Assembly: GCA_013343275.1 (NCBI GenBank)
Contig: CP046106.1
Coordinates: forward strand, 128,001 to 192,000
DNA from: Candidatus Nanohaloarchaea archaeon
GTDB lineage: Archaea > Nanohalarchaeota > Nanosalinia > Nanosalinales > Nanosalinaceae
Direction: 5' to 3'
Length of the DNA stretch: 64,000 nucleotides
Part shown: piece after piece, positions 1 through 13,915 of the stretch
How the letters are laid out: each line of letters starts with the position of its first letter
Numbering within the stretch: position 1 is the first letter of the stretch
Notes under the pieces: generated by a model
Seen by the model: the letters and a program-made list of their open reading frames with translations, nothing else
Databases searched by the model: none
Told to the model about the DNA's origin: nothing
Made by a program: the position numbers and the translations under genes

Positions 1-391
1 TTTCCTCTTTTATCTGCAAGGTATTAGAGGTTATCTCTTTTTCCTGCTTGGGTGTAACCTCTACATCTGCTAAGTCTACTCTGACTACTTTCCCTTTCAT
101 CTCTCCATGGTTTACTGCCTTGAATGGTAGAGCGTATTTTCCTGGATAATCTTTCTCCCAGTTAGGTTTGCCTTCAGATCTTATCTTTAGCTCATCTCCT
201 GGTTGAATCTCTATATCTGATGATGGTTTCTTGAAGTGGTTGAGGTATAGAGATGCAGATACTATTCCAAAAGTCAAGATTGAGAGGAGGGAGCTATAGT
301 TCTCCCAGACTCCAGGGAGGAAAATATTAACTAGAATTAGTAAAACTACTAAACATCCAATTCCTCCAAGAATTATCCTGTCTGAGTCCAT
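1..391 (-). CDS. Membrane-anchored hypothetical protein (runs off the left edge)
   Basis: ATG at 391; translates MDSDRIILGGIGCLVVLLILVNIFLPG... with two hydrophobic segments and stays open to position 1; not in ORF track. Confidence 0.7.
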   Translation of the reverse strand, partial: MDSDRIILGGIGCLVVLLILVNIFLPGVWENYSSLLSILTFGIVSASLYLNHFKKPSSDIEIQPGDELKIRSEGKPNWEKDYPGKYALPFKAVNHGEMKGKVVRVDLADVEVTPKQEKEITSNTLQIKEE

Positions 392-525
392 GGGCGTAAT
401 TTTGGAGACAAGACTTTACCTTCTTTGGGTAGGGGTTGGAGGCCAGATAGGTGCATAAACAAGATCAAGGAATGAATTATAGTAGGAATAAAGGGTAGGA
501 AATACTTAGTTCTCTCATTCAAGGA

Positions 526-846
526 TTAGGCCTTGATTTTAGTCCACTGGTTTCTTGGATTCTTATGCTCTGAGTCAATGCCTTCTATATACTGAGTTAG
601 CTTGCCTTTTTCTCTCCTGAAACTATCCTGCTCTATCTCACCAAACCAGACCTGCCTATAACCTCTCTGACCTTTCTTTACAATCATCAAATTATACTTG
701 CCAGTTCCAAAACGATCTCTCACTTTCTTAACCAGTTCAGATTCCCTCTTTATCCTACTATCATCTATCCTGATAGTATCTATGTTCTTGAACTGCTTAG
801 GACTTAGCTCTTTAGCCACTATCAGTTTAGCATTGTTATCTGCCAT
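526..846 (-). CDS. Hypothetical basic protein of the element
   Basis: 106 aa ORF with GAAGGTG SD-like sequence before the ATG; co-oriented with the element operon. Confidence 0.7.
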   Translation of the reverse strand: MADNNAKLIVAKELSPKQFKNIDTIRIDDSRIKRESELVKKVRDRFGTGKYNLMIVKKGQRGYRQVWFGEIEQDSFRREKGKLTQYIEGIDSEHKNPRNQWTKIKA

Positions 847-1020
847 GATGACACCTTCTCAAATTATATTTTCTTTTTTGATTTGGAGATCTCTGGCTTC
901 CAGGTCTTCTCATGTGCGTGCGTATGCGTGGATAACCAGGATTTTTCTTTGGCTGATTCAGTGCTGATGATGTTGAGGGTTTCTCCAGGAAGGGCCTCCA
1001 GGAGGAGAGGGCTGTTGATG

Positions 1021-2499
1021 TCATACAGATAGCTCATAGAAAACTTCTCTTCCTTCTCTGGTTTTCTCTATCAATCCTTCTTCTCTCCAGTCTGACAGGT
1101 GATTTCTGGCCATTGTCTCTCCTATATCCATTACTTGCTCCACTTTCTTTCTCTTGAACTTTTGCTCCTTGACAAGCTCTCCTGGAATGCTCACATAGTC
1201 ATTGGAGTTCTCTCCATCGCTCTCTTGCTCCTTGATCTTCTCCTCTACTCTCTCATTATGCTCTTCTACACTCTCCTGGATCTCTTCTCTTACCTGTTTA
1301 ACTTCATTATCCCAGTTCCTGAGTTCTCCATCAAGTTTCAACCATTCCTGTCTAAAGTTCTCTCCAGGTTCTCTATGCCTGGCTCTTGTAGGATAACTCT
1401 TGAAGTCTTTAATCAATGTCTCTGGAGTCCAGAGATAGAAATAATGATCTTCAAGGCCTTTGATCCTCTCCTTATCCTGTTTGGAAAACTCTTCTTTAGT
1501 TCTCTCATCAAGAACTGTCTGGATTCCTTTAGCAGTATTCAACCTGCCAGTAAACAGGTAGTTTAACTGACTTCTAGCTATATCTGAAAGCTCCTCAGGG
1601 TTCTGAGTATCAATGAAAACACTTACTCCCATCTGCCTGCTTTCCTTCAAGAACTCCTCTATAATCTCTCTAAAGGCCTCTGAACTACCTCCATTACCAT
1701 TATCATCTTTCAACAGTTTATGACCTTCTCTAATGAAGATAACAAGGTAAGGCTCTATATCCCCCTGTTTCAATAGTTCCAAGATTCTCTGCAAGATATG
1801 GACTACAGTGAACTTAGTGATTTTATCTGACTGAACTTGAGCAGTCTCCAATATCATTCTCCTGTCCTCACTGTTCAACTCCTTAAACAAGTTGAGTGAG
1901 AGAGGACTGTTTTCACTGGTTACAAGCCTGTGATCTGCAAGCTCTATCAGTGAGTGCTGTATAGGTCTCTTACCTCTCTTAGTTGGAGAACTGATCTTGA
2001 TCCCTGAACTACTTTCTATATAGTCCTGATCTGGTAGCTCCTCAGAGAGCTTCAATAGATCTGCAACATTAGGACTATCCATCTCCTGAATATCGTTTAT
2101 CATGGCGTTAAACAAGGCCTCATGGCTTTGTGATACATCTCCAAGAAGTGCTTTCAAGGAGTCCTCTGAGAGAGTCTTGATAGGTATAGTGAATGGTTGA
2201 ACTGGCTCTGGTTGAGTAAGATTCAAATCAGGTGTAAGTGGTTTGTAGATCTTTCCAGGAAAGGCCTTAGGCTCAGGGTTCTCAGGGTCCTGCCATACCT
2301 CATAGTTTGATCCTTCAGGTAGAACTGAGAATGAGCCTTCTATCTTTGATGAGAATATATCTACTACTTTGACATTCTCCTTTTCCTGGAATACTTCCAT
2401 AGCTCTCTCCAGGATCATTGATTTACCAGTTCCACTTTGTCCTGTTACTCCTGCTCTAACAGGTTTCTTACTGGGATGTGGGAATCTGACCTGTTTCAT
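1021..2499 (-). CDS. HerA/FtsK/VirB4-like P-loop ATPase with C-terminal winged HTH
   Basis: Walker A GQSGTGKS; Walker B-like IFIREGH; KESRQMGVSVFIDTQNP motif typical of HerA/FtsK; C-terminal ...RNHLSDWREEGLIEKTREGREVFY wHTH. Confidence 0.8.
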   Translation of the reverse strand: MKQVRFPHPSKKPVRAGVTGQSGTGKSMILERAMEVFQEKENVKVVDIFSSKIEGSFSVLPEGSNYEVWQDPENPEPKAFPGKIYKPLTPDLNLTQPEPVQPFTIPIKTLSEDSLKALLGDVSQSHEALFNAMINDIQEMDSPNVADLLKLSEELPDQDYIESSSGIKISSPTKRGKRPIQHSLIELADHRLVTSENSPLSLNLFKELNSEDRRMILETAQVQSDKITKFTVVHILQRILELLKQGDIEPYLVIFIREGHKLLKDDNGNGGSSEAFREIIEEFLKESRQMGVSVFIDTQNPEELSDIARSQLNYLFTGRLNTAKGIQTVLDERTKEEFSKQDKERIKGLEDHYFYLWTPETLIKDFKSYPTRARHREPGENFRQEWLKLDGELRNWDNEVKQVREEIQESVEEHNERVEEKIKEQESDGENSNDYVSIPGELVKEQKFKRKKVEQVMDIGETMARNHLSDWREEGLIEKTREGREVFYELSV

Positions 2500-3074
2500 A
2501 GCTCATCTCCTCCATAGATAAGTTCTTCCATAGTTTGAACTCTATCCTGAACATAATCACTGGTTATCTGGTTCTCTGAGGTTGCCTCTCCTATTGCATC
2601 TACCTTGCCTTCTGAACTGGAGAACTCTTCTGTAGATATGAAACCTAGATCAGAGAAGGCCTCTTTAACAGATTTCTCTACTTCTTGCTCCCATTCTCTT
2701 ATAGGCTCTTCTAACTTCTCTGCTCTCTCCTTTTTCCCTTCATCTTTCTTATTATACTTCTTAACCTGTTCCTTCAACTCCTCAGCCTTAGAATAGTGCT
2801 TTTTAGCCTCTTTACCATTCTCTACTAGGTAATGGCCTAATTCTGTTACTTCATCAGGCTCTATATCAAAGAAATCAGCTAAAACCTGCTTATTTTCATT
2901 GTATATCTCCTTAATTATCTCAAAGTCATCCATTTTCCTGTAGTCATGCCTTCTACTGCTCTCCTCACAGAACTCCATTAATACCAGTCTAAGCCTCTGA
3001 TCTCTGAAAGAGAACCTATAGCAACTGTAACTTAGCCTGGAGTAACTGCCTGGTTGATATTTCTGTATTCTCAT
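2496..3074 (-). CDS. Hypothetical protein
   Basis: 192 aa ORF with ATGA overlaps to both neighbours. Confidence 0.7.
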   Translation of the reverse strand: MRIQKYQPGSYSRLSYSCYRFSFRDQRLRLVLMEFCEESSRRHDYRKMDDFEIIKEIYNENKQVLADFFDIEPDEVTELGHYLVENGKEAKKHYSKAEELKEQVKKYNKKDEGKKERAEKLEEPIREWEQEVEKSVKEAFSDLGFISTEEFSSSEGKVDAIGEATSENQITSDYVQDRVQTMEELIYGGDEL

Positions 3075-3424
3075 AGCTCCACCTCCCCAACCTCTCTATG
3101 CAGGGTTTCCAAGATTATCTCATACTGCTCTTGCAGTGAATTAGCCTCTAAAACAAACTCTGCAGGCTCTCCAGTGTAAAGAGAAACCAGGTATTTGAGT
3201 TCTATCTTACTGATCTCCTGCAGGCCTGTAGATTTGAGGACTTCACTGAGTGAGTCATGCTCCTCTATCAAGGACTCTATCCTTTGAAAAGTAGAGGTAG
3301 GGAGTTCCCTCCTTAATTTCTCCAGTCCTGGTTCCTCAGTAATCTTATCTCTGTATTTCTCTAGGAGGCTATCCTGGACATAATTTCCATCATGGAACTC
3401 CTCAGTCATACCTTCTTTCCCCAT
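3071..3424 (-). CDS. Hypothetical protein
   Basis: 117 aa acidic ORF, coupled in the operon, GGTGAG SD. Confidence 0.7.
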   Translation of the reverse strand: MGKEGMTEEFHDGNYVQDSLLEKYRDKITEEPGLEKLRRELPTSTFQRIESLIEEHDSLSEVLKSTGLQEISKIELKYLVSLYTGEPAEFVLEANSLQEQYEIILETLHREVGEVEL

Positions 3425-3426
3425 TT

Positions 3427-3699
3427 TTACTCACCTTGGAGGTGTTTCTGCCCCTCAATCATCTTCTGGACAATCCTTCTCCATTCCTCTCTACCTAGTG
3501 AGTTAGAAGTGCCTCCAGGTTGCATGTCTTGGGCTATACTGAGTGCTAATTCTTTGAGCTGTCCTGCATCTAAATCTCTTATCTCAGAGTGTTTTAGGTT
3601 CCTGAACTCTCTGCCCTCAGTAAGGTCTCTAAGCTCTTGGATTTTGTTTTCTGAGATTTTGAAGTCTTCTGGAAAGTTTGTTGTGTTGTCGTCTTTCAT
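3427..3699 (-). CDS. Hypothetical protein
   Basis: 90 aa ORF with AGGTGA SD upstream. Confidence 0.65.
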   Translation of the reverse strand: MKDDNTTNFPEDFKISENKIQELRDLTEGREFRNLKHSEIRDLDAGQLKELALSIAQDMQPGGTSNSLGREEWRRIVQKMIEGQKHLQGE

Positions 3700-3859
3700 T
3701 GTGGTTCACCTTTTTGGTTAAATCTGGAAATGTAGATCCTGGCAGGAGGGATTTTAGCCCCCTGCTCAGGAGAGGGAGCCATGGCTCTTACTTGGAAATG
3801 GCTCAGACCTGCCTTGCGACAGGTAAAAAGTCTAGATAGCCAGTTAGACTGCTCTAGAC

Positions 3860-4156
3860 TCATCTTTCTGGAATATTGATCTTGTTGAGGACTATCTCCC
3901 CTTTCTCAGTGGTTTTGTAGAAAGTCCTACCATCTGCCTCACCTGTTTCCTTAACTAGGCCTTTTTCCTGCAGTTTCTCTACATGGTATTCTATGGTCTG
4001 ATGGGCCTTTCTGAGGTCTTTTGCAATGCTTGAGATGTAATCCTGATTCTCCAAGTGAGCTAATACTTTCCTGGTAGTTCTGCCTCCTACTTCTCTCACC
4101 AATGCATCAAAGTTGGTTTCCTCAGTGTTTCCAGAGTCTTTACCTATACTACTCAT
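3860..4156 (-). CDS. ArsR/MarR-like winged-helix regulator
   Basis: ISSIAKDLRKAHQTIEYHVEKLQEKGLV...FYKTTEKG wHTH pattern; start moved to ATG 4156 after GGGGTGAG. Confidence 0.8.
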   Translation of the reverse strand: MSSIGKDSGNTEETNFDALVREVGGRTTRKVLAHLENQDYISSIAKDLRKAHQTIEYHVEKLQEKGLVKETGEADGRTFYKTTEKGEIVLNKINIPER

Positions 4157-4250
4157 GGAACTCACCCCAATTCTCAACTCTATCTACTGATTTTCTCACT
4201 TGATTCTGAACTGTATCTGAGTGGTTGAATGACTCCATAATCTTGATCAC

Positions 4251-6515
4251 CTAGACTTTTGCAACCTTTCCAGGTTCAGGCTCAAAGAACTCGCCCTCAC
4301 TTTTCAGAGATTTTAAGGCCTCCTCTATCTTCTCTTCATCTGCATCCAGAGACTCTATAACTTCTTGCTCATCTTTCTGGCTATCTCCAACTTTCTCCCT
4401 AACTAGCTCCATTACTCCTTTCTTAACCTGAACTGAATCAGTGTTATCAGAGCTTTCAGAACTATCCAAGCCTTGAATCTGTTCTACTGTTATAGGCTCT
4501 CCTTCTCTGAAATCCATAGAACATCTGCATTTAGTGAAAAGCTCTATAGCCCTCTGAGCATCAATCTTCTGGGCTTTATCATCCAGTCTAGACTTTGCAA
4601 ACATCAAAGTGAGCTGGATGAGGTTCCTGATCATTCTTGGGCTTTCAGACTTAACCTCTGCCTTAATGTTGTTAGCCTCAGCATCTGCTAGATTTCCTTT
4701 GATGAATTTGTTGATCAGGTTTCCTGCATCCTCAGTTAATACTGGCTCTTTCTCCTTTGCTAGGCCTCTGTAAATGACCTGAGTCTGCTTATCCATTCCT
4801 TCATCTCTCTCACTGCCTCCTGTTTCCTGGTATCCCTGAATCATCTCATTTGCTATCTCAGAGAGATTCTGTTGCCTGATTCCATAGATCAAAGAGAATC
4901 TATCCTTGAAACCTTGAACCATCTCAGGCAGGTAACTATGTAGTTCCTCATACTGCCCTGTTTCAAAGTCTAGTTTCTCAGTAAAGTTACCAGTAGCTAT
5001 TATAGTGGCTCTACCATTCAGTTCAACATTCTGTGAGGCCTTATCAATAGGAAATTTACCTCTCTCCATAGCAGTGTTAAGCCTGCCTAGTTGCTCACTT
5101 CCTATCTTATCCATCTCATCTACTGAAAGAACTCCTTGATCTGCATAGACTAGCTTTCCTGCTCTGATCTCATAGCCTCCATTATCTAGGTTCTCAACTG
5201 TGGCAGTAAGGCCTACTCCTGTAGAGTTATTATCTGCATAGTATGTGTTTGAGAAAGTCTCCTGGATGTATTCCTGCAGATCTGATTTAGCTAACCCTGG
5301 ATTAGCAACTATCAGGGAATGGATTCTGTCATCATCTCCTCTAGATTCATTCTCTACTCCTCCTATCAGGCTTGCACCCATCACCTCTTTCAAGGTCTGA
5401 GCATCCACAATGTGAGGAGCAAGGCCTAGAGCAAACTCTTTGAAGGCATATGTATCAGGACTATTATTCCAGACCTTAACCTTCTCTTTTACCTCTTCTA
5501 TATCCTCTTGAGAAACTTCCTGCATCTGATCCTTTCTATCCAACCTCTTGAAACTCATTACATCTAGAACAGGATCTAACTCTGTCTGATCATTCTGTCT
5601 AGGAACTCCTCTGATAACTCCTGAAACTCTTACTTTCCTACCTGGAGTAAAGGCCTGCTTAGTATCCTCACTGATATTCTCCTTCTTGATAAAGGCCTCT
5701 AAAGGCTTATTTTCTACAGTCTGAGTTGAAAGAGTAATCTCCTTAACATCCTGAAAGTTTCTATCAACAAGGTCAAATTTCCTGCTACCACATTGACACT
5801 TGTAAGGAGATTTCAGCTTATCTCCATCCTGCTCCTTCTCATACAGGTCTCCACACTTAGAACATTCAAACTCTGCAGAAACTACTTTGGTATAGGAATC
5901 TTTCTCTCCCTCTACCATGGCCTCAATCGTTACAAACTCTCCAATATTCCTGTTATCTCTGGCCTCAGAGATCGTTTTCTCATAGTAATCAACATCTACA
6001 TCAAGCTCCAAGGTAAGACCAGGCAGGTTATCTGATAGATCCTTCTCTATCTCATCCAGAAGATCTATGAACTCATCAGTATTTTCCTCTGCCCAGTCCA
6101 AGATCTCAAACCTTATGCTCTCCAATTCACTCAGGCTTAACTCATAGACTCCATCATCTAATAAGGCCTGAGAAACCTTTTCTCTACCTTCTAAGGATAA
6201 ATAGTTCTTGATATCGCTCCTGATGTCCTTGTAACCTTCAGGTTTGCTGACCTCTTGCTCATCAGGGTTGAGAAGAGTTTCTGCAACATTCTCTCCTCTC
6301 TCATTAATCTCATAGTGGCCTCTCTCAGGTTTGTCCAGGAGGTTTCTCTCATCCTTACTTTCCAGTTTTCTCACTATCTTTGAGAAAGCAGGCTTAGATC
6401 CCTCATAGTTATGATCCTCTCTGAACTTCTCATAAAGATCTGATAAACTTGCAGGAGAGCCTATCTCATCCTGTTTTTCGTAAAACCAGGTAAGGAATTG
6501 GTCCTGTCTGTTCAT
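4251..6515 (-). CDS. mcm: MCM-family replicative helicase with extra N-terminal wHTH (element-encoded)
   Basis: Zn finger CSKCG...CQCG, Walker A NPGLAKS, Walker B SVDEMDK, DRF arginine finger, SPR sensor-2, C-terminal wHTH; GGAGG SD before ATG 6515. Confidence 0.92.
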   Translation of the reverse strand: MNRQDQFLTWFYEKQDEIGSPASLSDLYEKFREDHNYEGSKPAFSKIVRKLESKDERNLLDKPERGHYEINERGENVAETLLNPDEQEVSKPEGYKDIRSDIKNYLSLEGREKVSQALLDDGVYELSLSELESIRFEILDWAEENTDEFIDLLDEIEKDLSDNLPGLTLELDVDVDYYEKTISEARDNRNIGEFVTIEAMVEGEKDSYTKVVSAEFECSKCGDLYEKEQDGDKLKSPYKCQCGSRKFDLVDRNFQDVKEITLSTQTVENKPLEAFIKKENISEDTKQAFTPGRKVRVSGVIRGVPRQNDQTELDPVLDVMSFKRLDRKDQMQEVSQEDIEEVKEKVKVWNNSPDTYAFKEFALGLAPHIVDAQTLKEVMGASLIGGVENESRGDDDRIHSLIVANPGLAKSDLQEYIQETFSNTYYADNNSTGVGLTATVENLDNGGYEIRAGKLVYADQGVLSVDEMDKIGSEQLGRLNTAMERGKFPIDKASQNVELNGRATIIATGNFTEKLDFETGQYEELHSYLPEMVQGFKDRFSLIYGIRQQNLSEIANEMIQGYQETGGSERDEGMDKQTQVIYRGLAKEKEPVLTEDAGNLINKFIKGNLADAEANNIKAEVKSESPRMIRNLIQLTLMFAKSRLDDKAQKIDAQRAIELFTKCRCSMDFREGEPITVEQIQGLDSSESSDNTDSVQVKKGVMELVREKVGDSQKDEQEVIESLDADEEKIEEALKSLKSEGEFFEPEPGKVAKV

Positions 6516-6559
6516 TGTCCTCCAAACCTCCTCTGAGAGAAATGCCCATGGCCCCATGT

Positions 6560-6672
6560 GGTTAAGATGGTTAATTGGGTTAATTGAGGTAAATAAACCA
6601 TCTTGTTAGGCCTTGATAGTAGATTTTTCTGGGAATTAACCTCCTTTCTTAACCTAATTAACCTAATTAACC
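6560..6672. repeat. Inverted array of 9-bp iterons (candidate element origin)
   Basis: GGTTAAGAT-GGTTAATTG-GGTTAATTG at 6560-6586; inverted AATTAACC at 6634, then CTTAACCT-AATTAACCT-AATTAACC at 6648-6672. Confidence 0.75.
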
Positions 6673-6708
6673 ACCTACCCCCTAAGGTGTTTCTATATAG
6701 TATTTCTT

Positions 6709-7044
6709 TCATTGGATCAAATCACCATTACTTGGAATACGCTTTCTGTGGTTGACTGGAGCTTTTTGCAGGCCTACAGTTCTTCTGCAGTTAGGACAGG
6801 CCCAGTTCAAAAGGTCTTTCTGAGAATCTAGTTGATCTATCAGGTGTTCAGATGCAGGATCTTGGTTAAGGAATTGCTTGAGCTTCTTCTCAAAAACTGC
6901 TCTATGAAATACTGCCTCACATTCTGGGCATTGCAGTCTTCTAGGAGCTTCAAATCTGAACAGCTCCAGGACTCTTTCAGTTTTCTCACTGGACTTGAAC
7001 TCAAAGTTTGTTGGAGTCTCTACCATTGTCCTCATCAGAATCAC
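6709..7044 (-). CDS. Zinc-ribbon protein
   Basis: CPEC...CPNC. Confidence 0.7.
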   Translation of the reverse strand: MILMRTMVETPTNFEFKSSEKTERVLELFRFEAPRRLQCPECEAVFHRAVFEKKLKQFLNQDPASEHLIDQLDSQKDLLNWACPNCRRTVGLQKAPVNHRKRIPSNGDLIQ

Positions 7045-7274
7045 CTCTCCATCTCTGGAGCTGTCTGTTCTCCTGGTTTTGAGTTCATTAATTGTCTGAA
7101 GGCCATGTCAAGAAGATCTCTAACTACTTGGTTTCTGGATTTGTCTTCTGAGGTCTCTGCCAGATCTCTGATTATCTCATCTTGGTAGTTATCTATGTAG
7201 AAACCTACTTTGACTTTCTCTGATTCCTTATTCTGTAATGTAAAGCCTTTTTTAGGGTCTCTAAGCTGATACAT
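7041..7274 (-). CDS. Ribbon-helix-helix (CopG-like) protein
   Basis: VKVGFYID-NYQDEIIRDLAE-SRNQVVRDLL strand-helix-helix pattern. Confidence 0.7.
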   Translation of the reverse strand: MYQLRDPKKGFTLQNKESEKVKVGFYIDNYQDEIIRDLAETSEDKSRNQVVRDLLDMAFRQLMNSKPGEQTAPEMER

Positions 7275-7413
7275 TGTTAGAGCTTACCTCATTGCCAGGG
7301 CCACCAACCCTGGTATCTTCAGATTTTTCTTCTCTGACTTCCTGGAGCTTCTTCTCCAGGTGTCTTTCTAGCTCCTCTCTACTAGCGCCGTCGTTTTCAG
7401 ACTCTGTTCTCAT
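7261..7413 (-). CDS. Small hypothetical protein (50 aa), probable first gene of the leftward operon
   Basis: MRTESENDGASREELERHLEKKLQEVREKK...; below the ORF-track cutoff; overlaps the RHH start. Confidence 0.5.
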   Translation of the reverse strand: MRTESENDGASREELERHLEKKLQEVREEKSEDTRVGGPGNEVSSNNVSA

Positions 7414-7449
7414 ACTTAGTTCTTACAGCTAACATCATCTTATATTCGA

Positions 7450-7467
7450 ACTAACATAGATGTTAGT
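7450..7467. promoter_or_regulatory. Palindromic operator between divergent transcription units
   Basis: ACTAACAT-AG-ATGTTAGT; extra CTAACA half-sites near 7429 and 7523. Confidence 0.55.
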
Positions 7468-7538: not shown

Positions 7539-8732
7539 ATGGAAGATCTGAAAACTGAAAGCGATCTGATTCCTCTAGGCTCAGTTAAAGGAGACCAGGT
7601 GAAGTTCGAACTTGCCTACATCTATACTCTAGGATTAATGCAGGAAGAAATGAAGGATCCATATCAGGATCGAATAATTGAGGAAATGAAACCGCATTTA
7701 AGGAAAATATATGGGGAAGAATGGGTTGTTAACCAAAGTAAGCCTAAATTACGGCAGAAGATTAAAAGACTCGGAGGAGGCTCAGATCTTGTCGAAAAAA
7801 CGAGAGATGAAAGAAAAGTATATCATAAGCTTTCTACAAGGGGAAAAGAGTTCTACAAGAATATTAAGCCAATATTTTCCAGTTTTTCCTCAACAGACAT
7901 TGAAGAAGCGATAATTGACGAAATGGAGACATATATCCATGGTGATCATCACTCTGAATATTACGGGCATGGATATACCTTAGACGACTTCAAGGACTTG
8001 GTGGAAAGGGATTATGATGGAGAAAGAGATTTCGACAAACTTAAGGAAGATGTGGCAACCAGGCTTGGGGTAGGGCCATCTAGAGAAGTATTTGAAAACC
8101 AGTTCTATCAGGTTTTCTCTGATATGCGAGAACAAGCTGTTCCTCGAAAAATGGCTACTTTCCAATCTAGAAAAAACCTCATTATAGAGGCTTTTGAAGA
8201 GCAAAATTCCTCAAAAGAATTGCTTTCATTTGAAGAGATTGGAAATAAGACTGAAATTCTAGATTATCTGCCAAGAAAGGTTTTGAAAAGAGATGTAGAT
8301 AGGTTGCAAGGAGTAGAACCATCTTCAGATAGGATAAAGAAGGCTGTAAAGCAATATGGAAAAAAGGAAGATGAAATACATGTGGCTGATGTAAATGAAG
8401 TATTGAGGCTCTTTAACGACTATGAAAGAGCTGAAGAGATTTTAGAACAGGCAATAAGTAATGATGCTATTTATTTAGAGAGGGAAGGTTCAAAAATCAA
8501 GTGGAAATCTTACGAGTCTCGAAGAAAAGAGAAAGAGAGTAAAGAGGATAAAGAGAATAATGGATACTTAAATTCGCATTCCTACGGTGTCGAAGATTTA
8601 GGTTTCGCTAAAAAGCATCAACTCAAACCTGTTTTGAAAGAAAAGAAAGGTAAATACAAGCTGAGTGATATGGCTAAAGAGTTCCATAGGTCAAATGTTT
8701 ATCTTCCTAACAGGGATATAATCGGTCAATAA
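7539..8732 (+). CDS. Hypothetical protein with N-terminal wHTH-like domain
   Basis: 397 aa; ...DLVEKTRDERKVYHKLSTRGKEF wing motif; divergent from the replication operon. Confidence 0.7.
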   Translation: MEDLKTESDLIPLGSVKGDQVKFELAYIYTLGLMQEEMKDPYQDRIIEEMKPHLRKIYGEEWVVNQSKPKLRQKIKRLGGGSDLVEKTRDERKVYHKLSTRGKEFYKNIKPIFSSFSSTDIEEAIIDEMETYIHGDHHSEYYGHGYTLDDFKDLVERDYDGERDFDKLKEDVATRLGVGPSREVFENQFYQVFSDMREQAVPRKMATFQSRKNLIIEAFEEQNSSKELLSFEEIGNKTEILDYLPRKVLKRDVDRLQGVEPSSDRIKKAVKQYGKKEDEIHVADVNEVLRLFNDYERAEEILEQAISNDAIYLEREGSKIKWKSYESRRKEKESKEDKENNGYLNSHSYGVEDLGFAKKHQLKPVLKEKKGKYKLSDMAKEFHRSNVYLPNRDIIGQ

Positions 8733-8752
8733 GAGAAGCACTATTTCATATA

Positions 8753-9142
8753 TTATCTCTTTCTATATCTCCACTTATTCTCTCCAGGCATCAAAGGGGA
8801 TAGAATCTTCTTATTGTAGTTCTTACTACTTTGATTTAGCTTCTTCAATCCTTTTTTAGCAACACCTGCAGAGAATCCATAGTCAGCTCCTAAAGCAGTT
8901 GCTAAAGTCTTGAGATTCTTCATTGCTAGACCCATTCTGGTTACTTCAGGACCTATTCTGTCAGTATTATGTTTGAATGTCAGAAGGAACTTATCTTCTT
9001 CTGAGTGTAGCCTGCCTGGTAGATAGTGTCTGTTCAGTGCTAGAGTTCCTTTACTATTCTTCGCTATTTCTAATCTGCCTGCAGGTTTGGCCTCTTGGGG
9101 AACTTTCTCTTTTATTCCAATTTTATTGTAAATTCTTCTCAT
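8753..9142 (-). CDS. Hypothetical basic protein
   Basis: 129 aa ORF with ATGA overlap to the upstream gene. Confidence 0.5.
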   Translation of the reverse strand: MRRIYNKIGIKEKVPQEAKPAGRLEIAKNSKGTLALNRHYLPGRLHSEEDKFLLTFKHNTDRIGPEVTRMGLAMKNLKTLATALGADYGFSAGVAKKGLKKLNQSSKNYNKKILSPLMPGENKWRYRKR

Positions 9143-9930
9143 TCTTGAACCTCCTTTGCTCTAGAAACAAAGTCGTTAATTTCTCTCCTAGCTCCATCTA
9201 AGAGAGATTCTAACTCGCTTACTTTGGTTATGTAAGGAACTTTTTCTCCTGGGTTTACTCCAAGCTCATCCACCATTACCTGCATTGGAGGTGCTTTCAT
9301 CATTATTTTGTCTGACTCAGCTTTCTCAACTGCTGACTCTACCATATCTAGAGGTTGGGAAATATACATTTCTAGAGGTAGCTCCTCTATCTGTCCACTA
9401 TCGTCCATTAATCTAAATTTCATGGATAATTTCCTGTAATCTTTGTAGTAGTGAGCAGAAGTATCTTCTACCTCTGTTACTCCACTGCTTTCTTCATCTC
9501 TGAATCCATGAACCTCTTTCTCCAGCCATTCAACTTCTTTTTTCATATCTAACTGCTTAGCAAGCCTTAAAGCCATTCTAGCTATAGTGGAGACATCTTC
9601 ATCTGAGTCTATCTTGCTTTCAATTTTCTTTAGAAGTTTTCTTTCATCAGAGGTCTTTTCTTCTTCCTCTTTTCCAGATTCTTCCTCAAATTTCTGCTCA
9701 ATCCTGTCAAAGTTAATGTCTCCTTGGGCTTGGAATGCGTTAACTCCTTCAGCATCTTCAAATATCTGCTCTTGAGACCTATCTATCAGGTTTTTGATCT
9801 CATAACCTACTTTACCTACTCCAAGAAATCCTAGAGTGGTAACAATTAGAGATAGTATTCCTATGGCATGCTCTTGTAGGTATACTGCTAGTGAAATATT
9901 TTCACATCCTTTGGGAATTTTAATATTCAA
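9139..9930 (-). CDS. TM-anchored AbiTii-like domain protein
   Basis: N-terminal TM helix; DSDEDVSTIARMALRLAKQLDMKKEVEWLEKEVHGF resembles the AbiTii consensus (S.LLR....A.KL......W...EL.GY). Confidence 0.65.
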   Translation of the reverse strand: MNIKIPKGCENISLAVYLQEHAIGILSLIVTTLGFLGVGKVGYEIKNLIDRSQEQIFEDAEGVNAFQAQGDINFDRIEQKFEEESGKEEEEKTSDERKLLKKIESKIDSDEDVSTIARMALRLAKQLDMKKEVEWLEKEVHGFRDEESSGVTEVEDTSAHYYKDYRKLSMKFRLMDDSGQIEELPLEMYISQPLDMVESAVEKAESDKIMMKAPPMQVMVDELGVNPGEKVPYITKVSELESLLDGARREINDFVSRAKEVQE

Positions 9931-9944
9931 AGTAGAGTTTTCTT

Positions 9945-10346
9945 TTAAGTTCCAAATTCTTCCTTGTAATGATCATAACTCGTTAGAATATCCATTGACA
10001 ATCCTATCAACATGCAAATACCATTATTTTCTACACCTGTCTTTCTTTTCAAGTTTCTCTTACTTGCTAGACCTCCCCACCGCTGCATGAGCCATTCATG
10101 GTAGGAGTCCATATTTCCTTGTTTTATAGTAGTTAAATCTATTTCCTCTTCAAATTCTTCCTCAAGTAATGCCGTTACACGGTAGTTCTCAATGGCTTCT
10201 ATAGTCTTATCTAAGTCTAGTTCTTCTCCTTTATCGAGCAATATATTCAGTCGACTAACATGTTCTCGCCATAGACTTGGATATTCCATGAAATATCCTC
10301 TAAACCCGAAATTTAAGACTCTTTTGACTATTGTGGTTAGATGCAT
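9945..10346 (-). CDS. Hypothetical protein
   Basis: 133 aa ORF; true start may be an internal Met. Confidence 0.45.
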   Translation of the reverse strand: MHLTTIVKRVLNFGFRGYFMEYPSLWREHVSRLNILLDKGEELDLDKTIEAIENYRVTALLEEEFEEEIDLTTIKQGNMDSYHEWLMQRWGGLASKRNLKRKTGVENNGICMLIGLSMDILTSYDHYKEEFGT

Positions 10347-10491
10347 ATGATTAGAAATTCTCTGTATCGATTACAGTAGCAAATAAATCCCCTGACCTTT
10401 GATTGCGCTCTCCAATTATAGTAATCTGTCTGTTAATTGATAACTCTCCAATATAGACGACCTTTCATTACAAGTCCTTTCTGAGTTAGGT

Positions 10492-11172
10492 TCATTCTTC
10501 GTCACCAAAAACTTTGGACTTAAAGCGGGATTTATAGTAGCCTATAGGGCCAGCAGGCGTTGTTGTTTCTTCTATTTCAAAACCTAAAAATTCTGTGCTA
10601 AATATTATGAAGAAAGAATACAACATTGCTACAGAGAAAGTCGATGATGCGCCCAAAATAAGCAAGTAGGTGAAGACAAAAATTATTGCAGTTTCTGTGC
10701 CCTGAAAAAGGGTTAATTCAGCCAACGTCATCCCAAATTCTACAGTAGTTGAAACTTCTAGGTCCTGAGGTATTAAGTTAGCTCCTGCTATAATAACTGC
10801 AAAAATGTGTAACAAAAGTATCTGACCTCCTGTATACAGAAAGTTATGAGCTGTTCTAACATAGTGATACTCCTCCAGGCCACTAGAAAATTTGCTCAGA
10901 GGCTCTTCAAATGCCAGGATAACACTTCCTGCTGTAAAACACAGGAAAGAAAGATTGAATATAAGGCTCCCAAATCTCTGAAATTCTATCACGGCTATAC
11001 CAAGGGCTAAAAGTGCAGTGACTTGAATTAAGAGAAAAAATATGTTTGCAAAAACCTTGTGCGAGAGAAATTCTTTTGCTATCTGCTTCCAAGTCTGGAG
11101 ATCTCTCAGAGACCCATATTCATCCTTTCTCCAGCTCCACGGCGATCTTACTTTTCTATTATCATCACTCAT
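10492..11172 (-). CDS. Multi-pass membrane protein
   Basis: About four hydrophobic helices; overlaps the upstream gene. Confidence 0.7.
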   Translation of the reverse strand: MSDDNRKVRSPWSWRKDEYGSLRDLQTWKQIAKEFLSHKVFANIFFLLIQVTALLALGIAVIEFQRFGSLIFNLSFLCFTAGSVILAFEEPLSKFSSGLEEYHYVRTAHNFLYTGGQILLLHIFAVIIAGANLIPQDLEVSTTVEFGMTLAELTLFQGTETAIIFVFTYLLILGASSTFSVAMLYSFFIIFSTEFLGFEIEETTTPAGPIGYYKSRFKSKVFGDEE

Positions 11173-11689
11173 CTTCAGTTTTCTGAGCCTCCTTAGACAC
11201 TAATGGAATAGTCCATTTTGTTTGATTGGCAACATCTTCAAGGTTATCGCCATTTATTTCCAGTGCTACATATATTACTGCTATCATGAATATAGTGACT
11301 ATAATTGTGGTAAGATAATCTGAACCCGTAGGCTGCCCTCTAAGAAGTAAAGTTGTAATTTGAACAAAGGAGAAGGCGACTAGTGTAATTGTGAACAAGG
11401 TCTCCACTGCGGAGGACTTTTTCTCCTGCTCCATCAATTTCTGATTAAACTGTCTATTTTTCTCAATTTCCTCTAGGAGCGTGTAGTCTTGGAGCTTATC
11501 TATGCCATTATGAGTTAGAACTATGCTATGATTCCAATCAACTAAGTTATAGTCCTCAAGATATTCTATATCCGCTTTACTCACTTCTCTACCATCTACT
11601 TCATCGAAACTCCTGATAGTTGGGGCAGCACCAGTTCTCTCCTTGTGATTCCATATTTCTCTCAGAATTTTTAGGTGTCTCTCATCCAT
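11165..11689 (-). CDS. wHTH-like plus 2TM protein
   Basis: IEYLEDYNLV...LTHNGID wing motif, then two TM helices. Confidence 0.7.
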   Translation of the reverse strand: MDERHLKILREIWNHKERTGAAPTIRSFDEVDGREVSKADIEYLEDYNLVDWNHSIVLTHNGIDKLQDYTLLEEIEKNRQFNQKLMEQEKKSSAVETLFTITLVAFSFVQITTLLLRGQPTGSDYLTTIIVTIFMIAVIYVALEINGDNLEDVANQTKWTIPLVSKEAQKTEDE

Positions 11690-12256
11690 TTAGACCACTT
11701 CAAAACTCTTTACTACAGTTTCTGTATGCTTTTCCCCATCCTCCAAGTATTCGATCAGGATTTGAACTCTCCATTCCCCTTTTTTGGTAGGTTTATACCA
11801 AGAACTGTAAGGATTTGAAGCATTAGTTGTATTATATATCTTGGTGCTTCTTGTCTGCCATCCTTTATGTCTCGTATTGCCATTTAACCAGTCTACAGAT
11901 ACATTATAGGGGAGTTCCTTGGTGTTCCATACCCTAAAATAGATTGTAATATTGTCTCCTGGACTATAGATTTCTCTATCTCCAATTATCTTGGAGTTCG
12001 ATATTTTTAGCTCAGGTTCATATTCTGTCTGAGGTTGTTCTGCCCAAACTGGCTTTATGTAAGGCTCTGAGCCAATAAAATCTATATCAGGAAGTTCTCC
12101 AGTAACATAGACTCCTGCTATAAGATGTCTGGCATAAGGGGAAGTAAAAGGAACAGTAATAATAAATACGATCAAACCACCTATAACAGCAGAAATGAGC
12201 TGTTTTCTAGATACATGAGAGAAAAACTTGTCCTTTAATTTACTATAATATCCCAT
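11690..12256 (-). CDS. Membrane-anchored Ig-like beta-sandwich protein
   Basis: N-terminal TM; YSPGDNITIYFRVWN...GEWRVQI pattern. Confidence 0.7.
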   Translation of the reverse strand: MGYYSKLKDKFFSHVSRKQLISAVIGGLIVFIITVPFTSPYARHLIAGVYVTGELPDIDFIGSEPYIKPVWAEQPQTEYEPELKISNSKIIGDREIYSPGDNITIYFRVWNTKELPYNVSVDWLNGNTRHKGWQTRSTKIYNTTNASNPYSSWYKPTKKGEWRVQILIEYLEDGEKHTETVVKSFEVV

Positions 12257-12484: not shown

Positions 12485-12497
12485 AAGGGCCGGTCCA
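12485..12497 (+). repeat. Direct repeat copy 1, AAGGGCCGGTCCA (candidate att)
   Basis: Identical to 13903-13915; followed by CTA; lies at the compositional boundary. Confidence 0.6.
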
Positions 12498-12854
12498 CTA
12501 CTCTACGTGTTCATTTACATTACTCGCTTTCTGAACCACTTCTTCGTCAACCTAAATAAACCGCTCGAAAAACTACGCTCAACCACGGGCGAAGAGGTTC
12601 CGGCAAGTGGGGAAAAGCGATTCTTCTCTTCAGAGCGAGAGAACAAGCTATCAAGAGAAGGAGCTGAATGATGCCTATGACTTAGGAAACTCTGTGAGCA
12701 GGTTCCCTCCTCTGCGAGGATTAGATCCTATGCGCGCGCAGACCTCAAAATTTCTGGAATCTTCGTAATAAATCAGAAGTTTACGTTCTATGCGCATAGG
12801 CGGGCGTAGAAATAATGAGAAATCTTATAGTATTTATTTTATACTCTTGTAGAT

Positions 12855-13556: not shown

Positions 13557-13573
13557 TAGGTGAAAAATACTTT

Positions 13574-13816
13574 ATGGGAGTTGTAAAGCGCGACGGCAAA
13601 TGGAGACTTGAAAAGAAGAAAGAAGGAGTTTACCTAGTGACGGAGAGAGGCGAACAAAAGGCAAAAATCATTACAGGAGAATATGAGCCCTCAGGCCCAA
13701 TGAATGATGAGAGAAATGATATGATGTCCCAAGTGATAGAGGTTAGAGATTTCGAAGAGGCGAAGAAAGAGTTCAAGAGTTTCGCCTCAGGAGGATCTTC
13801 CGGAGGCCTTTTCTAA
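13574..13816 (+). CDS. Hypothetical protein
   Basis: 80 aa ORF, GGTGA SD, downstream of the Mrr gene. Confidence 0.65.
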   Translation: MGVVKRDGKWRLEKKKEGVYLVTERGEQKAKIITGEYEPSGPMNDERNDMMSQVIEVRDFEEAKKEFKSFASGGSSGGLF

Positions 13817-13902
13817 TGGAAATAATGGTATAACTATCTATGGATTTTGACAGCTTTGATGCCACTCAGAAGAAGAGGTTCATCTGAACACGTACCTCAG
13901 AT

Positions 13903-13915
13903 AAGGGCCGGTCCA
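13903..13915 (+). repeat. Direct repeat copy 2, AAGGGCCGGTCCA (candidate att)
   Basis: Identical to 12485-12497. Confidence 0.6.

What the first reader, a model, noticed from the sequence alone, without database searches (positions are those of the whole stretch)
1..7450. Mobile-element backbone almost free of CG dinucleotides
Seen: by eye only about 20 CG dinucleotides occur in 7.45 kb, although C and G are common and hundreds would be expected; Arg is coded nearly only by AGA/AGG. Host DNA after ~12.5 kb is CG-rich (TCGA and CCGG everywhere). The element still carries many AGGCCT sites, so it looks adapted to this lineage yet has purged CG. Inference: strong selection against CG-containing restriction targets, or long-term CG methylation and deamination, acting specifically on this replicon.
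Basis: partly seen in the sequence, partly recalled or inferred. Interest (0 to 1): 0.8.

Follow-up and report, generated by a model that had tools for sequence, protein, structure and literature searches.

The report
Mobile element nearly free of CG
A 17-kb mobile element inserted in a tRNA gene of a tiny salt-lake archaeon has spelled its core genes so that the two-letter word CG, and a few other short words, almost never occur, most likely to slip past DNA-cutting defences.

Summary
Window 1-7450 holds 21 CG where 310 are expected (O/E 0.068), against 0.78 for the 916-kb genome. It is the genome's only CpG-poor island. The tract is the conserved backbone of a 17.16-kb element integrated at tRNA-Ile(GAT), with a tyrosine integrase, a HerA-like ATPase, a wHTH protein and an MCM helicase. 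An 11-nt repeat bounds it.

CG is missing in all three codon phases. Junction CGs are about 14-fold rarer than the element's own codon usage predicts. The core shows no TpG/CpA excess. The host has no C5 methyltransferase match. An integrase 67% identical, on another nanohaloarchaeal contig, has normal CG (O/E 0.68). So methylation with deamination, and a foreign compositional legacy, are poorly supported.

The element also lacks GTAC, GCNGC, GDGCHC, CCGG and ACGT. The genome's longest gaps for these words all fall on it. A related MCM-bearing contig lacks 9 of 16 palindromic tetramers. Best reading (0.6): selection to evade restriction-type defence, carried down to a dinucleotide. The agent that reads bare CG is unknown. 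This is a new variant of known restriction-site avoidance.

The parts
1..7450 (.). CG-depleted tract given in the finding; from about 553 onward it is the conserved backbone of the integrated element
   Evidence: 21 CG against 310 expected. Coding O/E is 0.044 and non-coding 0.26. Relatives in four metagenome runs cover this part.
2..391 (-). N-terminal part of a 206-aa membrane-type ORF that runs off the window start (full ORF is L032:5271-5891); lies in the variable cargo stretch
   Evidence: ORF list. No PHROGs match. In a related metagenome contig the stretch L032 2332-6052 is replaced by other DNA.
526..846 (-). 106-aa ORF, function unknown
   Evidence: no Pfam match over cut-off or PHROGs match
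914..930 (.). Cluster of 3 of the 21 surviving CGs, in a thrice-repeated TGCGT word in non-coding DNA; possible protein-binding site (inferred)
   Evidence: CG positions 917, 921 and 927; sequence read
1021..2499 (-). 492-aa P-loop ATPase of the HerA/FtsK kind with a C-terminal winged-helix tail
   Evidence: Pfam HerA_C 1.1e-5 (24.7 bits, cut-off 22). PHROGs phrog_7035 1.8e-12 and terminase-like 5.9e-8. In 70 class genomes, the best matches outside the host itself are 26% identical or less.
2496..3699 (-). Three small ORFs (2496-3074, 3071-3424, 3427-3699), function unknown; replaced by other DNA in one metagenome relative
   Evidence: joint 7984->9366 in L032 coordinates
3860..4177 (-). 105-aa winged-helix DNA-binding protein
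   Evidence: Pfam HTH_27 3.2e-7
4251..6557 (-). 768-aa MCM helicase of the element, distinct from the chromosomal MCM
   Evidence: Pfam MCM 1.2e-28, MCM_OB, MCM_lid. It is 30% identical to the host's own MCM at genome 111,749-113,716 and 38-40% to second MCM copies in three other genomes.
6561..6679 (.). Inverted sets of GGTTAA(TT) words just upstream of the MCM gene; possible origin or operator (inferred)
   Evidence: Inverted repeat arms 6565-6592 and 6649-6676, 82% complementary; sequence read
6709..7274 (-). Two small ORFs (6709-7044 with two CxxC pairs; 7041-7274), function unknown
   Evidence: only sub-threshold zinc-finger matches
7539..12256 (.). Right-hand cargo: seven ORFs, including an AbiTii-like protein (9139-9930, minus strand). 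Less CG-depleted (O/E 0.36). Keeps TCGA but lacks CCGG and GTAC, with one ACGT.
   Evidence: Mostly uncovered in run X1, which covers the backbone.
12487..12497 (+). attR: 11-nt direct repeat of the 3' end of tRNA-Ile(GAT). attL is at genome 123,324-123,334, outside the window.
   Evidence: Sequence read; tRNA found. The genome's longest CCGG-free gap (17,163 bp) runs exactly from one copy to the other.
12498..13915 (.). Separate 1.4-kb module with normal CG, bounded by a third copy of the att core (13905-13915). Carries a membrane-anchored Mrr_cat nuclease gene (12855-13556, plus strand).
   Evidence: Third repeat found. Pfam Mrr_cat 3.9e-29. PADLOC PDC-S02 3.4e-22 and type IV methyl-directed REase 5e-8.

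Best explanation
What it is. Window 1-7450 is most of the conserved backbone of a 17.16-kb integrative element. Its parts are a tyrosine integrase, a HerA/FtsK-like ATPase, a winged-helix protein and an MCM helicase. It is inserted in the 3' end of tRNA-Ile(GAT) of a small, probably nanohaloarchaeal, genome.

How it most likely works. Selection has rewritten the backbone, almost entirely through synonymous choices, so that CG nearly vanishes. Arg is coded by AGR. NCG codons are not used. C-ending codons are avoided before G-starting codons. Several other short words have vanished too: GTAC, GCNGC and GDGCHC from the backbone, and CCGG and nearly all ACGT from the whole element.

The most likely benefit is escape from DNA-level defence as the element moves between cells. 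Without CG, no CG-containing restriction site exists. Nor can any CG-directed methyltransferase mark the DNA for methyl-dependent (Mrr-type) nucleases. Every amino acid can be coded without CG, so the purge costs nothing at the protein level.

Shown: the depletion, its codon-phase pattern, its restriction to one lineage and to the conserved backbone, and the co-avoided words.

Inferred: that defence evasion is the selective agent, and which enzymes are involved.
For: 1. Size and uniqueness. O/E is 0.068 (21 against 310). It is the only such island in the genome.

2. The depletion is at dinucleotide level, not codon or amino-acid level.
- By codon phase, observed against expected: positions 1-2, 2 against 62; positions 2-3, 2 against 102; positions 3-1, 10 against 158.
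- Host codon usage on the same proteins gives 326 +/- 14 CG.
- The element's own codon usage, shuffled, still gives 141 +/- 10.
- Observed: 14.

3. Other restriction-type words are also gone.
- Backbone: GTAC 0 sites (both-strand count 0 against 34.7 expected under the Markov model, about 17 sites), GCNGC 0 against 16, GDGCHC 0 against 10, GCWGC 0 against 9.4.
- The genome's longest gaps all lie on the element: CCGG 17,163 bp (att to att), GDGCHC 16,494, ACGT 15,426, GCNGC 15,146, GTAC 13,976, and TCGA and YCGR 7,662.
- GDGcHC is the motif found methylated in a cultivated nanohaloarchaeon that also carries an Mrr-type nuclease (PMC11001535, passages read).

4. The purge is lineage-specific and recent on the scale of protein divergence.
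- An integrase 67% identical, on a Candidatus Nanohaloarchaea contig, has 45 CG (O/E 0.68) and 3 GTAC. Ours has 3 CG and 0 GTAC.
- Eight related loci have O/E 0.39-0.72.

5. It tracks the conserved backbone. The two stretches that relatives in metagenome runs replace or lack are the less depleted ones, O/E 0.20 and 0.36.

6. Word purging occurs in kin. G050:C14, a 21,954-bp contig with an MCM 38% identical, lacks 9 of 16 palindromic tetramers, while two other contigs of that genome are normal.

7. Absent palindromic tetramers are documented for haloarchaeal viruses and plasmids (PMC7911831 and PMC11431627, passages read).
Against: 1. No cognate system was found in the present host. There is no match to PF00145. 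The only matches to PF01555 (weak, below cut-off) and PF02384 (22.4 bits, just over the 20.4-bit cut-off) fall in one ORF, which reads like an RNA methyltransferase. There is one Mrr_cat nuclease. Only these four families were searched, and restriction nucleases are hard to recognise.

2. Ordinary 4-base palindromes cover only about 28% of host-rate CG sites. Non-palindromic contexts are wiped out as well: CCGA/TCGG 0 against 62, and CCGC/GCGG 0 against 34. A plain sum of Type II sites therefore does not suffice, and no enzyme that reads bare CG is known in archaea.

3. None of the 5 nanohaloarchaeal C5 methyltransferases compared with solved structures resembles the CpG methylase M.MpeI (best E 1.8e-7, catalytic core only). 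One is HaeIII-like.

4. Non-coding DNA of the tract is less depleted (9 CG in 720 bp, O/E 0.26) than coding DNA (0.044). Pure DNA-level selection does not predict this unless those CGs are functional.

5. DNA of the closest relatives (MCM 84% identical) could not be obtained. Whether they share the purge rests on only 40 listed differences, none of which creates a CG.
Confidence: 0.6

Rival explanations
1. Mutational origin. The element's CGs were methylated by a CpG methyltransferase, in this or an earlier host, and were lost by deamination of 5-methylcytosine, as in vertebrate genomes or Mycoplasma penetrans.
For: - At 44 aligned places where the 67%-identical integrase has CG, ours has TG (16) or CA (5), 21 of 44 in all.
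- TpG/CpA is slightly raised in the integrase gene (1.14 against host 0.97).
- C5 methyltransferases exist in 15 of 70 genomes of the class.
Against: - No C5-methyltransferase match in the host, and none among the element's ORFs.
- No TpG/CpA excess in the 7.4-kb core (1.01 against 0.97). The gain is in ApG/CpT instead (1.59 against 1.27).
- Arg CGN is gone (2 observed against 62 expected), although deamination there changes the amino acid. Of 9 CG-containing codons at residues conserved with the relative, 6 were CGN changed to AGR.
- The flanking chromosome, under the same mutational regime while the element is integrated, has O/E 0.78.
- C-to-T at third codon positions is also the cheapest route under selection, so the TG counts do not discriminate.
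Confidence: 0.08
2. Compositional legacy. The backbone evolved in a different host whose whole genome is CpG-poor, arrived recently, and has not yet drifted toward the present host's composition.
For: The signature without CG words is unlike the host (r = 0.60, against 0.93 for host chunks) and closer to other nanohaloarchaeal mobile-element loci (up to 0.78). G+C is 41% against 47%.
Against: - No sampled relative is CpG-poor. The 32 loci of other genomes and contigs tabulated have O/E 0.56-1.24, and the lowest of all related loci is 0.39.
- The nearest relatives of the backbone proteins are nanohaloarchaeal, with normal CG.
- The backbone shares the host genus's unusual AGGCCT enrichment: 2.4/kb, against 0.5-0.8/kb in three related contigs examined (L019, L033, L034).
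- From my own knowledge, not from a call here: I know of no cellular genome with O/E near 0.05.
Confidence: 0.1
3. Selection unrelated to restriction: on the RNA (a CG-sensing RNA defence like vertebrate ZAP, or mRNA stability and translation), or on DNA mechanics (bendability, packaging in a capsid).
For: Coding DNA is more depleted (O/E 0.044) than non-coding DNA (0.26). CpG loss has been tied to DNA flexibility in thermophilic bacteria (PMC11282364, passages read).
Against: - The co-purged words (GTAC, GCNGC, GDGCHC, CCGG, ACGT) are typical restriction or methylation targets, and an RNA or bending model does not predict them.
- Six of the 9 non-coding CGs sit in two tight clusters that look like retained functional sites.
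- No CG-sensing RNA defence is known outside vertebrates (PMC11282364, passage read).
- No capsid gene was recognised.
Confidence: 0.1
4. Avoidance of a CRISPR protospacer-adjacent motif that contains CG.
For: None direct. Nanohaloarchaeal CRISPR spacers against mobile elements are reported (bioRxiv 10.1101/2025.02.15.638363, passages read).
Against: No CRISPR array was found in the host by a repeat-spacing scan. Such motifs are usually 2-5 nt on one side of a target. From my own knowledge, not tested here: complete loss of such a motif from a mobile element has not been described.
Confidence: 0.03

Closest known systems
Restriction-site (palindrome) avoidance in haloarchaeal viruses and plasmids: Hardycor1 lacks AGCT, CTAG and TGCA, with CAGC at 0.01; pL6-family plasmids lack GGCC and CTAG (PMC7911831 and PMC11431627, passages read)
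   Same: Complete absence of specific short words in a mobile element while the host chromosome keeps them. Here the absent words are GTAC, CCGG, ACGT, TCGA, CGCG, GCNGC and GDGCHC, with CAGC/GCTG at about a third of expectation. Acquired cargo carries the words that the backbone lacks, as reported for pL6 plasmids.
   Different: Here the avoided unit is a dinucleotide. All 16 NCGN contexts are depleted, and YCGR is at 0 against 140. No set of 4-6-bp sites explains this. No report of this kind turned up in the six literature searches.
CpG under-representation linked to the CpG-specific methyltransferase M.MpeI in Mycoplasma penetrans (Wojciechowski et al. 2013; seen only as a sentence and a reference entry in PMC11282364)
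   Same: A prokaryotic replicon with strong CpG under-representation.
   Different: There it is genome-wide and tied to a resident CpG methylase. Here it is confined to a mobile backbone, the host has no C5-methyltransferase match, and there is no TpG/CpA excess.
CpG suppression in vertebrate viruses (ZAP and TLR9 evasion; seen in search listings and abstracts)
   Same: A parasite genome recoded synonymously to remove CG and so escape host sensing; it would work in a like manner.
   Different: ZAP and TLR9 are vertebrate proteins and no archaeal counterpart is known. Here other DNA words typical of restriction targets are purged too.
MCM-encoding integrative elements and viruses of archaea (Krupovic et al. 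2010; seen as a reference and one sentence in bioRxiv 10.1101/2025.02.15.638363)
   Same: MCM as the only recognisable replication protein, a tyrosine integrase and a tRNA target.
   Different: No capsid or other virion gene was recognised. The closest annotated viral integrases are 22-27% identical, and viral or plasmid MCMs 21-26%.
G050:C14, a 21,954-bp contig of another genome of the same family, carrying an MCM 38% identical
   Same: Same kind of element with extreme word purging: 9 of 16 palindromic tetramers at 0-2 copies.
   Different: It keeps non-palindromic CG and TCGA (96 against 80 expected), with CpG O/E 0.70. This is classical palindrome avoidance, not a dinucleotide purge.

Membership tests
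tRNA-integrating tyrosine-recombinase element (integrative plasmid or provirus) | Tyrosine recombinase gene next to the attachment site | tested here: met
   Pfam Phage_integrase 7e-13 (49.1 bits, cut-off 27.1) for L001:9395-10831, 60 bp downstream of the tRNA-Ile gene
tRNA-integrating tyrosine-recombinase element (integrative plasmid or provirus) | Direct repeats of the tRNA 3' end at both ends | tested here: met
   The 11-nt core occurs at genome 123,324-334, at window 12487-12497, and a third time at window 13905-13915. It is short: the search for exact repeats of 12 nt or more found none. The CCGG-free gap ends exactly at the first two copies.
tRNA-integrating tyrosine-recombinase element (integrative plasmid or provirus) | Absent from the same site in close relatives | tested here: met
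   In the same-genus genome G054, the tRNA-Ile end and the DNA matching window ~15.2 kb lie about 675 bp apart. G053 has 13 kb of other, CG-normal DNA there.
tRNA-integrating tyrosine-recombinase element (integrative plasmid or provirus) | Excision and transfer | not testable with these tools
   Only assembled contigs could be laid on the locus. No circular-junction joint appeared among the 15 joints listed, and 26 more were not shown.
Restriction-site avoidance in mobile elements | Short, mostly palindromic words absent or far below Markov expectation in the element but not in the host | tested here: met
   GTAC both-strand count 0 against 34.7 (second-order Markov). CCGG, ACGT, TCGA and CGCG at 0. 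GCNGC 0 against 16. GDGCHC 0 against 10. The host ratios for GTAC and the CG palindromes are 0.76-1.13 (second-order Markov); for GCNGC and GDGCHC they are 1.08 and 0.57 (zero-order).
Restriction-site avoidance in mobile elements | Avoided words match recognition sites of systems in the host range | tested here: inconclusive
   The present host shows no DNA methyltransferase match in PF00145, PF01555 or PF02384 that is not better read as an RNA enzyme. In kin, GDGcHC methylation is reported (PMC11001535), and a HaeIII-like methylase (E 2.9e-96) sits in a locus without GGCC. No enzyme for bare CG or for GTAC was identified.
CpG loss by methylation and deamination | A CpG (C5) methyltransferase acting on the replicon | tested here: not met
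   PF00145 gives 0 matches in the host (96.5% complete). None among 20 element ORFs scanned.
CpG loss by methylation and deamination | Compensating excess of TpG/CpA | tested here: not met
   Core 1.01 against host 0.97; integrase gene 1.14
CpG loss by methylation and deamination | Weaker loss where deamination changes the amino acid (Arg CGN) | tested here: not met
   Codon positions 1-2: 2 observed against 62 expected, as depleted as the other two phases
Archaeal MCM-encoding mobile elements | Full MCM helicase (OB fold, P-loop, lid) distinct from the cellular copy | tested here: met
   Pfam MCM 1.2e-28, MCM_OB 2.8e-6, MCM_lid 8.4e-6 (the lid at 26.6 bits is just under its 27.4 cut-off). It is 30% identical to the chromosomal MCM and 38-40% to extra copies in 3 of 70 genomes.

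The most novel reading that the evidence does not exclude
Cells in this hypersaline community carry a defence that reads the bare dinucleotide CG. It would act either directly, or through a CpG methyltransferase in some hosts whose marks are then cut by Mrr-type nucleases in others. This element family has answered by becoming essentially CG-free. That would be the first CpG-directed immunity, and the first CpG-free parasite, known outside vertebrates and their viruses.
Probability: 0.25. Interest if true: 0.8.

Novelty: new variant of a known kind. Interest (0 to 1): 0.6.

Why it matters
Word avoidance in viruses and plasmids is the footprint of the defences they meet. Known footprints are 4-6-base sites. 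A conserved 9-kb backbone at CpG O/E about 0.05, well below the roughly 0.2 I recall for vertebrate genomes (a figure from memory, not from a call), points to a pressure that acts on two bases. No known archaeal system has that property.

The finding gives a concrete, testable handle:
- a native CG-free replicon;
- an adjacent Mrr-type nuclease module;
- relatives in several metagenomes.

These can be used to look for CG-directed methylation or cleavage in the symbiosis between nanohaloarchaea and haloarchaea. That system has been proposed to exchange proteins, including methyltransferases, between cells (PMC11001535). The finding also shows that archaeal mobile elements can be sorted into old backbone and recent cargo by word content alone.

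Tried and rejected
Searches that did not deliver:
- A search for exact repeats of 12 nt or more between the tRNA region and the right edge found none. The 11-nt core was then seen by eye and a third copy by mismatch scan.
- Single-protein scans for MCM relatives in genome contigs and viral contigs found nothing.
- The MCM alignment found nothing in viral contigs and only two distant metagenome contigs.
- The integrase found nothing in viral contigs.
- The closest protein relatives (MCM 84, 51 and 49% identical) come from collections whose DNA I could not fetch, so their CpG content is unknown.
- The phages and plasmids collections hold only distant relatives, 21-27% identical.

Tests that gave no support:
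- No listed holder among the sequencing runs is on record as RNA.
- No circular or empty-site joint was among those listed; parts without cover are not interpreted.
- A CRISPR repeat-spacing scan of the host found no array.
- Five of the eight full-length nanohaloarchaeal C5 methyltransferases that I extracted were compared with solved structures. None is M.MpeI-like. Top matches to Dnmt1 cover mainly the catalytic core, and I do not read them as CG specificity.
- I considered tRNA supply as a cause of AGR-only Arg and rejected it, because the host itself uses CGN for 36% of Arg codons.
- I considered an assembly artefact and rejected it. The genome is one contig, and contigs from four independent runs match the backbone.

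Limits:
- Supplementary tables of the papers were not seen. Tetramer tables (Table S3 of PMC11431627) and virus genome tables of the nanohaloarchaeal virus preprint may bear on whether CG-poor elements were already tabulated.

Full report
**1. The observation**

Window 1-7450 contains 21 CG dinucleotides. With 1833 C and 1261 G, 310 are expected, so O/E is 0.068. GC dinucleotides are at 0.80, and the rest of the window (12,501-64,000) is at 0.81.

The window is bases 128,001-192,000 of a single 915,886-bp contig. Across that genome the O/E is 0.78. In 2-kb windows the mean is 0.78 (sd 0.13). All 16 windows below 0.45 lie between 123,001 and 140,000. At 500-bp resolution the island has sharp edges at 123,501 and 140,500.

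- Arg is coded by AGR 145 times and by CGN twice in the ten backbone genes. The host uses 4427 AGR and 2506 CGN.
- AGGCCT is as dense as in the host, 2.43 against 1.98 per kb.

**2. What is there**

A tRNA-Ile(GAT) gene lies at genome 123,260-123,334. A 478-aa tyrosine recombinase follows it directly (Pfam Phage_integrase 7e-13).

The last 11 nt of the tRNA recur at window 12487-12497, where the composition changes. This bounds a 17.16-kb insertion. A third copy at window 13905-13915 bounds a further 1.4-kb module. That module has normal CG content and carries a membrane-anchored Mrr_cat nuclease.

In the same-genus genome G054, the tRNA end and DNA matching window ~15.2 kb are about 675 bp apart. 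G053 has 13 kb of other, CG-normal DNA at the site.

Within the window, all on the minus strand, the element encodes:
- a HerA/FtsK-like ATPase (1021-2499);
- a winged-helix protein (3860-4177);
- an MCM helicase (4251-6557; Pfam 1.2e-28);
- small ORFs without matches.

No capsid or other virion gene was recognised, so I call it an integrative element and leave open whether it is a provirus or a plasmid.

The MCM is 30% identical to the host's own MCM and 38-40% to extra MCM copies in 3 of 70 genomes of the class. Metagenome proteins reach 84, 51 and 49%. Annotated viruses and plasmids are far more distant, at 21-27%.

**3. A mosaic of backbone and cargo**

Symmetrised CpG odds ratios by segment:

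| Segment | CpG odds ratio |
|---|---|
| Integrase gene | 0.06 |
| Genome 124,832-128,000 ('mid') | 0.20 |
| Genome 128,001-135,400 (core) | 0.06 |
| Genome 135,401-140,450 ('right') | 0.36 |

Contigs of four public runs from four studies match the backbone at 80-99%. One 14.7-kb contig has 3.1 kb of other DNA in place of the 'mid' stretch (L032 2332-6052), and 986 other letters in place of three small ORFs. One run covers the core but almost none of the 'right' stretch. So the near-CG-free parts are the conserved backbone, and the less depleted parts are variable cargo.

Of the 40 best-supported differences listed, none creates a CG once adjacent changes are read together, and one removes a CG. 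About 13% of all possible transitions would create one. This is a weak hint, from a truncated list (1370 further differences were not shown), that the relatives avoid CG too.

**4. Nature of the depletion**

It affects all three codon phases, given as observed against expected:
- positions 1-2: 2 against 62;
- positions 2-3: 2 against 102;
- positions 3-1: 10 against 158.

Rewriting the same ten proteins with host codon usage gives 326 +/- 14 CG. Shuffling synonymous codons under the element's own usage still gives 141 +/- 10, all at codon junctions. Observed: 14. The avoided unit is therefore the dinucleotide, not a set of codons.

The core has no TpG/CpA excess (1.01 against host 0.97). ApG/CpT rises instead (1.59 against 1.27).

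Depletion is graded by context relative to host rates (Fisher p = 2e-5 for YCGR against the rest):
- YCGR: 0 against 140;
- RCGY: 10 against 59;
- mixed contexts: 13 against 185.

Coding DNA is at O/E 0.044. The 720 non-coding bases are at 0.26, and six of their nine CGs sit in two clusters.

**5. Other missing words**

- The backbone has no GTAC. The both-strand count is 0 against 34.7 under a second-order Markov model.
- It has no GCNGC (16 expected), no GCWGC and no GDGCHC (10 expected). CAGC/GCTG is at a third of expectation.
- Genome-wide, the longest gaps between copies all fall on the element:

| Word | Longest gap (bp) | Next-longest gap (bp) |
|---|---|---|
| CCGG | 17,163 (att core to att core) | 3,499 |
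| GDGCHC | 16,494 | 6,963 |
| ACGT | 15,426 | 4,163 |
| GCNGC | 15,146 | 3,513 |
| GTAC | 13,976 | 3,074 (also on the element); next elsewhere 2,554 |
| TCGA, YCGR | 7,662 | 2,610 (TCGA); 2,184 (YCGR) |

- Other palindromic tetramers (AGCT, CATG, CTAG, GATC, GGCC, TGCA) are not avoided.
- The cargo on the right keeps TCGA (15 against 28.5 at host rate) but lacks CCGG and GTAC and has a single ACGT.

**6. Relatives**

- An integrase 67% identical, on a contig titled Candidatus Nanohaloarchaea, has 45 CG (O/E 0.68) and 3 GTAC. Ours has 3 and 0.
- Eight related loci have O/E 0.39-0.72.
- The 32 loci of other genomes and contigs tabulated have O/E 0.56-1.24.
- G050:C14, a 21,954-bp contig with an MCM 38% identical, has 0-2 copies each of ACGT, CATG, CCGG, CGCG, CTAG, GATC, GCGC, GGCC and GTAC. 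Two other contigs of that genome are normal. It keeps TCGA and non-palindromic CG, with O/E 0.70.

Heavy word purging thus runs in this kind of element, but the dinucleotide purge is particular to the lineage studied here.

**7. Host defences**

The host has no PF00145 match. Its only PF01555 and PF02384 matches fall in one ORF of 308 aa. I read that ORF as an RNA methyltransferase, from recalled motifs and without a test. There is one Mrr_cat gene, the one beside the element. No CRISPR array was found.

In the class, 15 of 70 genomes have a C5 methyltransferase over the cut-off, and none of the 3 genomes in the host's genus does. Of five compared with solved structures, one is HaeIII-like (E 2.9e-96) and sits in a locus without GGCC. 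None is like the CpG methylase M.MpeI.

From papers, as passages read:
- A cultivated nanohaloarchaeon methylates GDGcHC, carries two Dcm-like methylases and one Mrr-type nuclease, and may pass a methyltransferase to its host (PMC11001535).
- E. coli Mrr is cited as restricting DNA modified at 6mA and 5mC. One reference is titled for DNA modified at CG dinucleotides; I saw only the review's sentence and the reference entry (PMC12707154).

**8. Explanation**

The best reading (confidence 0.6) is selection for evasion of DNA-level defence, carried to the point where the backbone contains almost no CG. The grounds are:
- the dinucleotide-level pattern in all codon phases;
- the co-purged restriction-type words, including one shown to be a nanohaloarchaeal methylation target;
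- the restriction of the purge to one lineage and to the conserved backbone;
- the parallel in a related contig;
- the documented absence of tetramers in haloarchaeal viruses and plasmids (PMC7911831, PMC11431627).

What is not explained is the agent. Palindromic CG tetramers cover only about 28% of host-rate CG sites, and non-palindromic contexts are purged as well. That calls for many different specificities across the element's host range, or for something that acts on bare CG. One candidate is CpG methylation in one host followed by Mrr-type cleavage in the next. I found no direct evidence for such a system.

The rivals are less well supported, for the reasons given under each:
- methylation with deamination (0.08);
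- legacy of a CpG-poor donor (0.10);
- selection on the RNA or on DNA mechanics (0.10);
- avoidance of a CRISPR protospacer-adjacent motif containing CG (0.03).

**9. Comparison, novelty and verdict**

In mechanism this belongs with restriction-site avoidance in mobile elements. It differs in that the avoided unit is a dinucleotide, and in degree: O/E about 0.05 over some 9 kb.

Six literature searches turned up no report of a CpG-free archaeal or bacterial mobile element. The nanohaloarchaeal virus preprint does not contain the word 'dinucleotide'.

I rate it a new variant of a known kind, interest 0.6. The boldest reading that the data allow, a CG-directed defence in this community, I put at 0.25.

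Noticed in passing
whole genome (G000); for example 18 sites in window 1-7400: AGGCCT is 9.2-fold over zero-order expectation in the host: 1778 sites, one per about 505 bp, 30% of all GGCC. It occurs in all three reading frames and has no wider consensus around it. GGGCCC is at 0.32. The excess is already present at the 5-mer level (AGGCC/GGCCT). Loci of G053 and G040 share it (2.1-4.2 per kb); the other loci examined do not.
   Followed up: partly
L018 + L056 (G050:C14, 21,954 bp): A contig with an MCM 38% identical to the element's has 0-2 copies each of 9 of the 16 palindromic tetramers: ACGT, CATG, CCGG, CGCG, CTAG, GATC, GCGC, GGCC and GTAC, each with 39-80 expected. Two other contigs of the same genome are normal. 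It is a striking case of restriction-site avoidance in its own right.
   Followed up: partly
window 12498-13915: A 1.4-kb module lies between the second and third copies of the att core. It has normal CG content and carries a 233-aa protein with two predicted membrane helices (read by eye) and an Mrr_cat nuclease domain. It looks like the remnant of a second element, or a small defence cassette, at the same tRNA site.
   Followed up: partly
window 6561-6679: Three and four copies of GGTTAA(TT), in inverted orientation around a 56-bp spacer, lie directly upstream of the element's MCM gene. This may be an origin or an operator.
   Followed up: no
window 914-930 and 7386-7393: Six of the 21 surviving CGs sit in two tight clusters. 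One is a thrice-repeated TGCGT word in non-coding DNA. The other is GCGCCGTCG, upstream of the 7041-7274 gene. They may be functional sites kept despite the purge.
   Followed up: no
L021 and L007 (G032): Another complete genome of the family is poor in GGCC (0.35-0.4 per kb). In the 20-kb locus L021 it is also poor in CATG (4 against 71), CCGG (2 against 34) and GATC (14 against 71). No PF00145 match was found in that genome.
   Followed up: no
L044 (G063) and L045 (G047): C5 methyltransferases that match M.HaeIII over their full length (E 2.9e-96 for L044) sit in 4-kb loci with 0 and 2 GGCC. This suggests GGCC-specific restriction-modification in some nanohaloarchaea.
   Followed up: partly
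L042 (G053:C1:735001-751000): The complete same-genus genome has about 13 kb of different, CG-normal DNA between its tRNA-Ile and the conserved right flank. The tRNA-Ile site is therefore a variable hotspot in this genus.
   Followed up: no
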